64,000 nt of DNA from the human T2T-CHM13v2.0 reference genome, Homo sapiens. The DNA is taken from assembly GCF_009914755.1 (NCBI RefSeq), contig NC_060930.1. One strand, written 5' to 3'. This document shows positions 55,665 to 58,324 of this stretch, in pieces (position 1 is the first letter of the stretch; each line of letters opens with the position of its first letter). A model generated the notes under the pieces. That model made no database searches. It saw nothing but the letters and a program-made list of their open reading frames with translations, and was not told the DNA's origin. Both the position numbers and the translations under genes were made by a program.

Positions 55665-58324
55665 TGTATTAGTCCTTTTTCACACTGCTGATAAAGACGT
55701 ACCCGAGAGTGGGAAAATTACAAAGAAAAAGAGGTTTAATGGACTCAATTTAATGGACTCACAGTTCCACATGGCTGGGGAGGCCTCACAATCACGGTGG
55801 AAGGTAAAGGCATGTCTTACATGGCAATGGGCAAGAGAACATGAGAACCAAGTGAAAGGGGTTTCCCCTTATAAAACCATCAGATCTCATGAGACTTACT
55901 CACTACCACGAGAACAGTATGAGGGAAATTGCTGCCATGATTCAATTATCTCCCACTGGATCCCTCCCACAAAACATTGGAATTAGGGGAGCTAAAATTC
56001 AAGATGAGATTTGGGTAGGGACACAGCCAAACCATATTATTCCACCTCTGGCCCCTCCCCAAATCTTACATCCTGACATTTTAAAACCAATCATGCCTTC
56101 CCAACAGTCCCCCAAGGTCTTAACTCATTTCAGCATTGACTCAAAAGTCCACAATCCAAAGTCTCATCTGAGACAATGCTAGTGACTTCCACATATGAGC
56201 CTGTAAAATCAAAAGCAAGCTAGTTACCTGCTAGATACAGTGGGGGTACAGGCATTGAATAATATACCCATTTTAAATGGGAAAAATTGGCTAAAACAAA
56301 GGAGCTAAAGGCCCTATGCAAGTCTGAAATCCAATAGGGCAGTCAAATCTTAAAGCTCCAAAATGATCTCCATTGACTCCATGTTTCACATCCAGGTCAC
56401 ACTGATGTAAGAGGTGGCTTCCTATGGTCTTGGGAAGCTCCACCCCTGTGGCTTTGCAGGGTGCAGCCTCCCTCCAGGCTGCTTTCATGGCCTGCAGCTT
56501 TTCCACAGACACCGCTGAGTGTCTGCTGCTTTTCCAGGTGCACGGTCAGCTGTTGGTGGATCTACCATGCTGGGGTCTGGAGGATGGTGGCCCTCTTCTC
56601 ACAGCTCCACTAGGCAGTGCCCCAGTGGGAACTCTGTGTGGGAGCCTCTACCCATTTTCCTTATGCACTGCCCTAACAGAGGTTCTCTGTGAGGCCCACC
56701 CCCTACCTGCAGCAAACTTCTGCCTAGACATCCAGGCATTTACATACGTCCTCTGAAATCTAGGCAGAGATTCCCAAACCTCAATTCTTGACTTCTGTGT
56801 ACATGCAGGCCCAACACCATGTGGAAGCTGCCAAGGCTTGGGGCTTACACCCTCTGAAGCCACAGCCCAAGCTGTACCTTGGCCTCTTTTAGCCATGACT
56901 AGAGTGGCTGGGATGCAGGGCACCAAGTCTCTAGGCTGCACATAGCACAAAATCATTTTTTCCTCCTAGCCTCCAGGCCTGTGCTGGGAGGGGCTGCTGC
57001 AAAGGTCTCTGACATGCCAGGAGACATTTTCCCCATTGTCTTGGTGATTAACATTTGACTCCTCATTACTTATGCAAATTTATGCAGCTGGCTTAAATTT
57101 CTCCTCAGAAAATGGGTTTTTCTTTTCTATCACATCGTCAGGCTGCAATTTTTCTAAACTTTTATGCTCTGTTTCCCTTTTAAAACTGAATGCTTTTTAT
57201 AATGTCTTATAAAAATATTTCACAGTGGCCAGGTGCAGTGGCTCACGCCTGTAATCCCAGCACTTTGGGAGGCCAAGGTGGGCAGATCACAAGGTCAGGA
57301 CATCAAGACCATCTTGGCTAACACAGTGAAACCTCGTCTCTACTAAAAACACAAAAAATTAGCTGGGCGTGGTGGTGGGCGCCTGTAGTCCCAGCTACCC
57401 GGGAGGCTGAGGCAGGAGAATGGCGTGAACCCGGGAGGCAGAGCTTGCAGTGAGCCGAGATTGCGCCACTGCACTCCAGCCTGGAGGACAGAGCAAGACT
57501 CCCTCTCAAAAAAAAAAAAACAAAAAAAAAACAAACTGAATGCTTTTAACAGCACCCAGCACCCAAGTCACTTCTTAAAGGCTTTGCTGCTTAGAAATTT
57601 CTTCTGACAGATACCCTAAATCATCTCCTTCAAATTCAAAGTTCCACACATCTCTAGGGCAGGGGCAAAATATCACCATCTCTTTGCTAAAACATAGCAA
57701 GAGTCACATTTACTCCAGTTGCCAACAAGTTTCTCATCTCCATCTGAGACCACCTCAGCCTGGATTTCATTGTCCATATCATTATCAGTATTTTGGTCAA
57801 AGCCATTTAACAAGTCTCGAGGAAGACTTTCCTACATTTTCCTGTCTTCTTCTGAGCCCTCCAAACTGTTCCAACCTCTGCCTGTTACCCAGTTGCAAAG
57901 TTGCTTCCACATTTTCAGGTATCTTTACAGTAGTGTCCCACTCTACCAGTACCAATTTACTGTATTAATCTGTTTTCACACTGCTTATAAAGACATACCT
58001 GAGGCTGGTTAAATTATTAAAGAAAAAAAAGGTTTAATGGACTTATAGTTTCACATGGCTGGGGAGGCCTCGCAATCATGGCAGAAGGCAAAAGACACCT
58101 CTTATATGGTGGCAAGCAAGAGAGAATGAGAACCAGGTAAAGGGGTTTCCCCCTTATAAAACCATCAGATCTCATGAGACTTATTCACTACCACAAGAAC
58201 AGTTTGAGAGAAACTGCCCCTATGATTCAATTATCTCCCACCGGGTCCCTCCCACAACATGTGGGAATTATGGAAACTACAGTTCAAGATAAGATTTGGA
58301 TGGGGACACTGCCAAAGTATATCA
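55665..58324 (-). mobile_element. Full-length THE1 (THE1B-like) MaLR element: LTR 55665-56039, internal 56040-57960, LTR 57961-58324
   Basis: Two similar LTRs (one 364 bp) flanking THE1-int text; perfect TSD GCAGT at 55660-55664 and 58325-58329. Confidence 0.95.
57227..57532 (+). mobile_element. AluY inserted in THE1-int, with an extra 29-nt 5' segment inside its TSD
   Basis: TSD AAACTGAATGCTTTT at 57183-57197 and 57533-57547; non-Alu segment at 57198-57226. Confidence 0.95.

What the first reader, a model, noticed from the sequence alone, without database searches (positions are those of the whole stretch)
57183..57547. AluY carrying the 5' flank of another AluY 6 kb away: local retrotransposition with 5' transduction
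Seen: between the left TSD and the Alu start lies 57197-57226 TTATAATGTCTTATAAAAATATTTCACAGT. It matches 63361-63390 TTATAACATCTTATAAAAATATTTCATAGC (26/30), which directly precedes the AluY at 63391. Three of the four differences fit CpG decay. That flank includes the 63.4-kb Alu's own TSD, so it is native there and the direction is 63.4 kb to 57.2 kb. The recipient has a 15-bp TSD, a poly-A tail and a TT/AAAA L1-endonuclease site. Established: Pol III Alu transcripts begin at the Alu 5' end, so upstream sequence is not normally copied. Inference: a longer + strand transcript containing the Alu was primed at its A-tail by L1 ORF2p and reverse-transcribed about 30 nt past the Alu start. It then integrated near its locus of origin. 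I saw no shared private non-CpG changes in the two Alu bodies, which suggests copying soon after the source inserted.
Basis: partly seen in the sequence, partly recalled or inferred. Interest (0 to 1): 0.8.

Follow-up and report, generated by a model that had tools for sequence, protein, structure and literature searches.

The report
Alu carrying a neighbouring Alu's flank
An Alu repeat was inserted here together with about 30 bases copied from the DNA directly in front of another Alu 6 kb away, which is a rare case where the donor locus of an Alu insertion can be named.

Summary
At 57183-57547, a perfect 15-bp target-site duplication encloses 29-30 nt of non-Alu DNA, a full-length AluY-like body and an A-tail. 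The target is TTTT/AAAA.

The non-Alu piece matches 26/30, in register and without gaps, the DNA directly 5' of the AluY at 63391. In the whole T2T genome the 30-mer occurs only at these two places.

27 of 29 paralogues of the host repeat show the empty site without it. The 63.4-kb flanks are single-copy, and that Alu's own 8-bp duplication lies inside the 30-mer. So the piece is native at 63.4 kb and was copied to 57.2 kb.

The two Alu bodies share no private non-CpG change. Their private changes are about equal in number.

What is not settled is the template. A random retrotransposition would land within 6.2 kb of its source with probability about 4e-6, so a local process is implied. I slightly favour invasion of the neighbouring Alu DNA by the new Alu cDNA, with a 30-nt extension into its flank (about 0.42).

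I found no report of flank capture by an Alu. This is one old, fixed event.

The parts
57178..57185 (+). Target site TTTT/AAAA, matching the L1 endonuclease consensus. The first-strand nick falls between 57181 and 57182.
   Evidence: The same motif is present in the host-repeat paralogues.
57183..57197 (+). 5' copy of the 15-bp target-site duplication AAACTGAATGCTTTT
   Evidence: It is present once in 27 of 29 paralogues.
57198..57226 (+). Captured non-Alu piece. It is 29 nt, or 30 nt with the T at 57197 as 1-nt junction overlap. It is a copy of 63361/2-63390.
57227..57507 (+). Full-length AluY-like body (recipient)
   Evidence: The best genome matches are 93% identical.
57508..57532 (+). A-tail, A13 C A10 C
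57533..57547 (+). 3' copy of the 15-bp target-site duplication
63361..63390 (+). Donor flank: the native, single-copy 30 nt directly 5' of the 63.4-kb AluY
63383..63390 (+). 5' copy of the donor Alu's own TSD (TTCATAGC). It lies inside the 30-mer.
63391..63671 (+). AluY-like body (donor locus)
63672..63688 (+). Donor A-tail, A4 G A12
63689..63696 (+). 3' copy of the donor Alu's TSD (TTCATAGC). It serves as an outgroup for the last 8 nt of the 30-mer.
63703..63706 (+). First TTTT run after the donor Alu. It would act as a Pol III terminator 14 nt past the tail.
   Evidence: The functional reading is inference.

Best explanation
One L1-driven (target-primed reverse transcription) Alu insertion at 57.2 kb used the neighbouring AluY locus at 63.4 kb as template across that Alu's 5' boundary. 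I hold this general statement at about 0.9.

The route I think most likely, at about 0.42, has these steps:
1. L1 ORF2p nicked the bottom strand at TTTT/AAAA and reverse-transcribed an ordinary Alu RNA from its A-tail.
2. The 3' end of the new single-stranded Alu cDNA did not join the other target end. It invaded the nearly identical AluY 6.2 kb away on the same DNA fragment.
3. A DNA polymerase extended it about 30 nt past that Alu's 5' end into the native flank.
4. The extended strand was released (SDSA-like, no crossover). It was then joined to the upstream target end with 0-1 nt of microhomology.

This keeps the 15-bp TSD and deletes nothing.

Shown: the TPRT hallmarks, the copy relation, its direction, its register and its locality. 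Inferred: that the 30 nt were copied from DNA rather than from RNA.
For: - Hallmarks of TPRT are present: a perfect 15-bp TSD, an A-tail and a TTTT/AAAA target. The empty site is seen in 27 of 29 paralogues.
- The copy is in register from -30 through the Alu.
- The 30-mer is unique to the two sites in the genome (reversed control 0).
- The donor flank is single-copy and overlaps the donor's TSD.
- Locality: 6.2 kb apart, against about 4e-6 for a random landing.
- The cDNA grows from the DNA end on the 57183+ side, which is the fragment that carries the 63.4-kb Alu (inference).
- On that side the only nearer Alu (58.9-59.2 kb) is 67% identical and inverted.
- The two bodies share no private change beyond chance. 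There are 3 shared changes, all at CpG. Co-hit CpG positions number 6 against 6.1 expected. Six CpGs decayed on opposite strands. This is what a body derived from an unrelated Alu RNA would show.
- Precedent: 6 of 226 de novo Alu inserts were completed by recombination of the cDNA with a genomic Alu near the site (PMC3415434, passages).
- Precedent: 22 'templated insertions' at somatic L1 insertions, and an SDSA-like model of cDNA pairing with nearby homologous DNA (10.1101/2024.08.27.596794, passages).
- Precedent: templated insertions at L1 sites (PMC11702581, passages).
Against: - No sequence feature here tells a DNA template from an RNA template.
- The experimental precedents for Alu lose the TSD and delete or rearrange DNA. 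This locus keeps a perfect TSD and loses nothing, so a non-crossover variant must be assumed. It was not reported among the 226 inserts.
- The tumour L1 templated insertions are said to use templates very close to the site, not kilobases away.
- Equal private-change counts in the two bodies (19 against 23, p=0.64) fit a simple parent-daughter copy just as well.
- A + strand Pol II transcript (an HDAC2-AS2 intron, per the hub's table) covers both Alus in sense. That suits the RNA model.
Confidence: 0.42

Rival explanations
1. True 5' transduction. A + strand RNA spanning the 63.4-kb Alu and its upstream flank served as template. The likeliest such RNA is a nascent Pol II transcript or intron (HDAC2-AS2 runs + across both sites). 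It was primed at the Alu's A-tail by ORF2p at a nick 6 kb away and copied 29-30 nt past the Alu start. The cDNA was then 5'-truncated and joined.
For: - The register, direction and TPRT hallmarks are as for the best explanation.
- Both Alus lie in sense in an annotated + strand transcription unit (hub table).
- Private-change counts are equal and nothing contradicts parent-daughter descent.
- The alu63 variant at body position 266 is rare in the genome (1824 copies against 397 for another transversion). It is probably a later private change, so its absence from the 57.2-kb copy is no conflict.
- Pol II-driven Alu transcripts can retrotranspose (PMC2666806, abstract).
- Intron-derived snoRNA retrocopies can carry parental flank, including one with 90 bp of upstream sequence (PMC1687206, passages).
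- The 1-nt junction overlap fits a 5'-truncated cDNA.
Against: - A free RNA would land this close with probability about 4e-6. The RNA must therefore have been used locally, and I found no precedent for that.
- Pol II Alu transcripts retrotranspose at a drastically lower rate.
- A nascent transcript has kilobases 3' of the A-tail. From recall, that should disfavour priming.
- No private body mutation is shared that would prove descent.
- There is no A-to-G (ADAR-type) change among the 57.2-kb copy's private changes. This is weak evidence.
Confidence: 0.35
2. RNA-to-RNA template switch. ORF2p began on an ordinary Alu RNA. Within the Alu homology it switched to a second RNA that contained the 63.4-kb Alu with its flank, and it finished 30 nt upstream.
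For: - RT template switches and insertions made from two RNAs are seen at L1-mediated insertions (PMC11702581, passages).
- The model explains the register and the lack of shared body mutations.
Against: It needs a flank-bearing RNA, local use of that RNA, and a switch as well, so it asks for more than either main model. No mosaic boundary is visible in the body.
Confidence: 0.07
3. A DNA-only templated insertion (replication template switch or polymerase-theta-type repair). About 340 bp were copied from 6 kb away into a staggered break, with no L1 involved.
For: The template is local. Short microhomology is possible at both junctions: the A-run of the tail with the target AAAA, and 1 nt T at the 5' junction.
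Against: - The copied unit ends exactly in an Alu A-tail.
- The target is a full TTTT/AAAA L1 endonuclease site with a 15-bp TSD. This matches the mean of 14.0 +/- 3.0 bp for de novo Alu inserts (PMC3415434).
- Two paralogues of the host repeat have independent Alu insertions at the same site, which marks it as an L1-EN hotspot.
Confidence: 0.06
4. An ordinary Alu insertion at 57.2 kb, followed later by gene conversion or break repair from the 63.4-kb Alu that ran into the donor flank.
For: Exchange between neighbouring Alus is known (recalled, not checked here). The donor is near and in register.
Against: The break would have to sit exactly at the TSD/Alu boundary to leave a perfect 15-bp TSD abutting the captured piece. 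A break inside the Alu would give both ends homology, so repair would capture no flank.
Confidence: 0.04
5. A Pol III transcript of the 63.4-kb Alu that started 30 nt upstream, followed by ordinary trans retrotransposition that landed 6 kb away by chance.
For: The donor has an AT-rich, TATA-like 5' flank and a T4 run 14 nt past its tail. These features suit a Pol III source (the functional reading is recalled).
Against: The chance of landing within 6.2 kb is about 4e-6. No TATA-like element lies about 30 nt upstream of position -30. No other copy of the flank exists in the genome.
Confidence: 0.04

Closest known systems
5' transduction by L1 and SVA retrotransposons
   Same: Unique non-element DNA lies between the 5' TSD and the element start. 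It maps to the immediate 5' flank of an element of the same family, which identifies the source. The TPRT hallmarks are present. 5' transductions are described for L1 and SVA in 10.1101/2024.04.18.590093 (passages).
   Different: The element is an Alu, whose Pol III transcript normally starts at its first base. The carried piece is only 29-30 nt. The source lies 6.2 kb away rather than anywhere in the genome. An RNA origin is not shown.
Chimeric Alu inserts completed by recombination of the cDNA with a nearby genomic Alu (PMC3415434: 6 of 226 de novo inserts; similar chimeric L1s recalled from cell-culture work)
   Same: An L1-primed Alu cDNA uses its homology to a genomic Alu close to the insertion site. 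The result carries sequence from that genomic locus at its 5' side.
   Different: Those inserts lack direct repeats and come with deletions or rearrangements. Here the TSD is perfect and nothing is lost. What is visibly captured is the donor's flank, not a chimeric body.
Templated insertions at somatic L1 integration sites (10.1101/2024.08.27.596794; PMC11702581)
   Same: A short stretch of nearby genomic DNA (templates under 250 bp) is copied into the insert during integration. An SDSA-like pairing of the cDNA with nearby homologous DNA has been proposed.
   Different: Those are tumour L1 insertions, with templates stated to lie very close to the site. Here the event is a germline-fixed Alu with a template 6.2 kb away, next to a homologous Alu.
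Alu 3' transduction screens (10.1101/2024.04.29.591526)
   Same: The same genome (T2T-CHM13) and the same element class (full-length AluY).
   Different: That screen looked only for sequence between the Alu end and the 3' TSD. It confirmed none among 118,489 elements. It did not look at the 5' side, so this locus would not have been found.
snoRNA retroposons that carry parental intron sequence (PMC1687206)
   Same: These are L1-type retrocopies (TSD, A-tail) of a small structured RNA together with a piece of the host transcript. One has 90 bp of upstream parental sequence.
   Different: They belong to a different RNA class, most carry downstream rather than upstream flank, and no link to nearby reinsertion is described.

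Membership tests
L1-mediated (TPRT) Alu insertion | Direct repeats (TSD) flank the whole insert, and the target is present once in the empty site | tested here: met
   The TSD is 15/15 identical. 27 of 29 host-repeat paralogues are contiguous with one copy.
L1-mediated (TPRT) Alu insertion | A 3' A-rich tail abuts the 3' TSD | tested here: met
   The tail A13 C A10 C lies at 57508-57532.
L1-mediated (TPRT) Alu insertion | The target resembles the L1 endonuclease site TTTT/AA | tested here: met
   TTTT/AAAA lies at 57178-57185. Two paralogues have independent Alu insertions at the same site.
AluY subfamily | Diagnostic positions of AluY against a curated consensus | not testable with these tools
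No Dfam or RepeatMasker library was available. Both bodies differ from a majority reference of 49 genomic copies only by private changes. Their best genome matches are 93% identical.
5' transduction (as defined for L1/SVA) | Non-element sequence lies between the 5' TSD and the element's first base | tested here: met
   29-30 nt at 57197/8-57226.
5' transduction (as defined for L1/SVA) | That sequence maps uniquely to the immediate 5' flank of another element of the family, in register, and is native there | tested here: met
   The donor's own TSD overlaps it.
5' transduction (as defined for L1/SVA) | The flank was carried on an RNA that began upstream of the source element | not testable with these tools
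   No transcript data were available. The sequence cannot tell an RNA template from a DNA template.
5' transduction (as defined for L1/SVA) | The offspring shares private internal mutations of the source | tested here: inconclusive
   0 non-CpG and 3 CpG changes are shared, which equals the chance expectation. This is compatible with copying from a still-unmutated source or with an unrelated body.
cDNA-genomic Alu recombination class (PMC3415434) | A homologous genomic Alu lies near the insertion site and supplies the 5' side | tested here: met
   The donor is 6.2 kb away, in register.
cDNA-genomic Alu recombination class (PMC3415434) | Loss of direct repeats, with deletion or rearrangement | tested here: not met
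   The TSD is perfect and the flanks are contiguous as in the paralogues. The locus is therefore not a member of that crossover class. Only a non-crossover variant would fit.
Segmental duplication | Similarity extends beyond the repeat into both flanks | tested here: not met
   Similarity is limited to 57197-57524 against 63361-63688. True duplicates among the fetched loci align over 3.28 kb at 98-99.7%.
Part of the host repeat (reader: THE1B-int) | The 30-mer is present in other copies of the host family | tested here: not met
   It is absent from 29 of 29 paralogues examined and from the rest of the genome at up to 3 mismatches. The family name was not verified.

The most novel reading that the evidence does not exclude
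Alu insertions can be templated locally by a neighbouring Alu locus. The template could be that Alu's DNA, reached by invasion of the cDNA, or a nascent chromatin-bound transcript used in cis by ORF2p. On this reading the locus is the first recognised member of a class of 'proximal flank capture' events, which would tag Alu donor loci and show that TPRT intermediates sample the nearby genome. The boldest version is that ORF2p reverse-transcribed a nascent Pol II intron at a nick 6 kb upstream in the same transcription unit.
Probability: 0.3. Interest if true: 0.72.

Novelty: new variant of a known kind. Interest (0 to 1): 0.55.

Why it matters
Alu source elements are very hard to trace because Alus are said not to carry flanking tags. 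[quoted passage not shown] A 2016 paper says none had been reported (PMC4862182, passage). A 2024 screen of 118,489 AluYs in this same genome confirmed no 3' case and did not examine the 5' side.

This locus is a clean, checkable example of an Alu that carries 29-30 nt of another Alu's native 5' flank. The donor is named and the direction is settled.

The 6-kb distance argues that the intermediate used a template in its own neighbourhood. A simple genome-wide scan can test that idea. Such a scan would also separate RNA read-through from cDNA strand invasion as ways of resolving Alu insertions.

This is one old, fixed event with no sign of any effect on the host genes.

Tried and rejected
- Chance match: rejected.
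- The 30-mer as part of the host repeat: rejected.
- Segmental duplication: rejected.
- Reverse direction (57.2 to 63.4 kb): rejected. The 30-mer is an insertion relative to the paralogues at 57.2 kb. At 63.4 kb it is continuous with single-copy DNA and overlaps that Alu's TSD.
- Further offspring carrying a shorter piece of the flank: a pattern of 14 nt of flank plus 10 nt of Alu gave 56 matches. 2 had 0 mismatches (the two sites), 5 had 1 mismatch and 49 had 2. That number is what unrelated AT-rich Alu flanks would give, and none extends to the 30-mer.
- Test for a different subfamily origin of the two bodies: the only suspicious marker is T at body position 266 of the 63.4-kb copy. It is present in 12 of 20 copies picked for likeness to that copy and in 0 of 29 picked for likeness to the other. 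Genome-wide it occurs 1824 times against 397 for C at that site. The comparison is confounded because C creates a decaying CpG. I read it as a rare private variant that the seed-based search enriched, so the test is uninformative.
- First majority reference: it was biased toward the 57.2-kb copy's own changes. It was replaced by a balanced reference.
Of the 7, only this locus has a long (15-nt) word. The others are words of 9-13 nt that I took as low-complexity or chance matches; only two were checked (one misses that Alu's true, imperfect TSD, one is an Alu-internal word). The sample is too small for a rate.
- The neighbouring AluY at 51.4 kb was checked for a similar extra piece. It has none and shows a canonical TSD.
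- A larger unbiased Alu sample from chromosome 19 could not be fetched.
- Literature: the phrase with the prime sign cannot be searched. For that reason, the absence of printed reports of Alu 5' flank capture rests only and is weak. No supplementary files were opened.
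Full report
WHAT IS THERE. At 57.2 kb the order is as follows:
- TTTT/AAAA target, 57178-57185.
- 15-bp TSD AAACTGAATGCTTTT, 57183-57197.
- 29 nt of non-Alu DNA, 57198-57226. 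It is 30 nt if the T at 57197 is counted as a 1-nt overlap.
- Full-length Alu body, 57227-57507.
- Tail A13 C A10 C, 57508-57532.
- The same 15 bp again, 57533-57547.

At 63.4 kb the Alu body (63391-63671) has a tail A4 G A12 (63672-63688). It has its own 8-bp duplication TTCATAGC at 63383-63390 and 63689-63696. A T4 run follows at 63703-63706.

THE MATCH. A local alignment of the two regions is gapless. It runs from 57197/63361 through the whole Alu into the tail and stops exactly 30 nt upstream of the Alu start. A low-stringency comparison of 55.0-60.5 kb with 60.5-64.0 kb finds nothing else colinear beyond Alu-to-Alu hits. The pair is therefore not part of a larger duplication.

The 30-mers agree at 26/30. 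Positions 7-8 read TG against CA, which means an ancestral CG that decayed on opposite strands. Position 30 reads T against C in front of the Alu's first G. Position 27 reads C against T, and the donor's 3' TSD copy shows that T is ancestral. The 57.2-kb copy is thus derived at both differing sites in the last 8 nt.

NOT CHANCE, AND NOT A REPEAT CONSENSUS.
- A degenerate pattern covering both 30-mers, with up to 3 further mismatches, hits only these two places in the 3.1-Gb assembly. The reversed control gives none.
- With window base composition, a match of 26/30 or better somewhere in the genome has an expectation of about 0.5. In register in front of one of about 10 other Alus in the window, the expectation is about 8e-10.
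Seven pairs score 29-30, all from loci that are whole-locus duplicates (98-99.7% over 3.28 kb). This pair scores 26, two pairs score 22 (not inspected), and the rest score 18 or less.

THE PIECE WAS INSERTED AT 57.2 KB. The left flank belongs to a high-copy interspersed repeat (2906 first-look candidates, best copies 91-96% identical). I only compared copies.

In 27 of the 29 fetched paralogues the left and right flanks are contiguous, with the 15 bp present once and no trace of the 30-mer. The other two (L018, L020) carry their own independent Alu insertions at the same TTTT/AAAA site. This marks the site as an L1-endonuclease hotspot. L018's Alu appears to abut the target without extra sequence (its TSD was not checked).

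THE PIECE IS NATIVE AT 63.4 KB. Both flanks of that Alu are single-copy in the genome. The 30-mer is continuous with the unique upstream DNA. Its last 8 nt are repeated after the tail as that Alu's TSD (chance of an 8-mer at a fixed place is 1.5e-5). The direction is therefore 63.4 to 57.2 kb.

THE TWO BODIES. I polarised the differences against a majority reference built inside a script from 49 genomic copies. 29 were picked by likeness to one body and 20 by likeness to the other, with the two sets weighted equally. A first, one-sided reference was biased and was dropped.

Result, with the both-differ sites counted separately:

| Class of change | CpG | non-CpG |
|---|---|---|
| Private to the 57.2-kb copy | 10 | 5 |
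| Private to the 63.4-kb copy | 13 | 6 |
| Both copies differ from the reference, in different ways | 3 | 1 |
| Shared by both copies | 3 | 0 |

- The 57.2-kb copy also has one tail-edge gap.
- Co-hit CpG positions number 6 against 6.1 expected under independence.
- Six CpG dinucleotides decayed on opposite strands in the two copies.
- Private totals are 19 against 23 (p=0.64).
- Non-CpG divergence from the reference is 2.6% and 3.0%. With recalled neutral rates this puts both very roughly at 17-30 million years old.

The bodies neither prove nor contradict parent-daughter descent. The template was still close to consensus when it was copied. One possible subfamily marker of the 63.4-kb copy turned out to be a rare variant.

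MECHANISM. The 3' end (A-tail), the target and the TSD are canonical for L1-driven TPRT. De novo Alu inserts have TSDs of 14.0 +/- 3.0 bp and the same target consensus (PMC3415434, passages). The anomaly is at the 5' end: synthesis continued across the 5' boundary of the 63.4-kb Alu.

The second anomaly is distance. A free retrotransposition intermediate lands within 6.2 kb of its source with probability about 4e-6. Even a thousand Alu 5' transductions in the genome would give about 0.004 such pairs. A local process is therefore implied.

Two single-step models give both anomalies.

(a) The Alu cDNA invaded the neighbouring, then nearly identical, Alu DNA. It was extended 30 nt into the flank, released, and joined.
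- The cDNA grows from the DNA end that carries the 63.4-kb Alu.
- The only nearer Alu on that side is old (67% identity) and inverted.
- SDSA-like templated insertions are reported at tumour L1 insertions.
- Against: those Alu cases lose the TSD and delete DNA. A non-crossover variant has to be assumed.

(b) The template was a + strand RNA containing flank and Alu, used near its site of synthesis.
- The hub's table shows that HDAC2-AS2 runs + across both Alus.
- Pol II-driven Alu RNA can retrotranspose, but poorly (PMC2666806, abstract).
- snoRNA retrocopies show that intron-derived RNAs can be mobilised with parental flank.
- Against: I know of no precedent for local reuse of a nascent RNA.

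I put (a) at about 0.42 and (b) at about 0.35. The remainder is spread over an RNA-RNA template switch, a DNA-only templated insertion, later gene conversion, and an upstream Pol III start with a chance landing.

COMPARISON WITH PRINT.
- 5' transduction is described for L1 and SVA (10.1101/2024.04.18.590093, passages).
- For Alu, a review says flanking transductions are generally not produced, or are only a few bp (PMC10606232, passages).
- A 2016 paper says none had been reported (PMC4862182, passage).
- A 2024 preprint on this same assembly screened 118,489 full-length AluYs for 3' transduction, confirmed none, and states that no systematic study existed. I read parts 1-2 of 3. The 5' side was not screened.
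- My searches found no report of an Alu carrying another Alu's 5' flank. However, the key phrase cannot be searched because of the prime sign, much of the field's literature is outside the library, and I opened no supplements.

LIMITS. No primate genomes, transcript data or repeat library were available.

VERDICT. The donor and the direction are established. The label '5' transduction' is one of two live mechanisms. I classify the locus as a new variant of a known kind and rate it of moderate interest.

Noticed in passing
L018:1655-1967 and L020:1190-1501 (paralogues of the host repeat): Two of the 29 paralogous copies of the host repeat carry their own independent Alu insertions at the same TTTT/AAAA site, one in each orientation. 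With the window's copy, that is 3 of 30 copies hit at one site, which makes it an L1-endonuclease hotspot within this repeat family.
   Followed up: partly
window 57552-57565: A 7-bp tandem duplication (GCACCCA twice) lies just 3' of the insertion. It is absent from all 27 paralogues that are readable there. No link to the Alu event is evident.
   Followed up: no
window 51419-51731: A third AluY-like copy has a canonical, slightly imperfect TSD (AAAAAAATTATCAGAG against AAAAAAATTTATCAGAG) and no extra 5' sequence. It retains many CpGs, so it looks younger than the two Alus studied.
   Followed up: partly
window 63361-63390: The donor flank is AT-rich with TATA-like runs at about -30 and at -19 to -10 from the Alu start. 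A T4 run lies 14 nt past the tail. From recall, these features suit a Pol III-active source Alu. NCBI's mask starts at 63366, 25 nt before the Alu, and I do not know why.
   Followed up: no
window 63372-63390 and 63672-63696: The donor Alu's exact TSD is only 8 bp and starts at an atypical nick site. If 3 nt (TAT) were lost from the 3' copy, the TSD would be 16 bp and would start at a typical TTAT/AAAAA site.
   Followed up: no
L040, L057, L058, L059; L052, L053: Several of the best genome matches to the 57.2-kb Alu lie in whole-locus duplicates that are 98-99.7% identical over 3.28 kb. They sit on different chromosome ends, and as a pair on contig 2. They had to be set aside in the flank-pair null.
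   Followed up: partly
G000:C2:164044315-164044597 (L065): The best genome match of the 63.4-kb Alu body is 93% identical, and the next matches are 91%. It shares 8 of that copy's private variants. This is probably an effect of the seed-based search, and I did not examine it as a possible relative.
   Followed up: no
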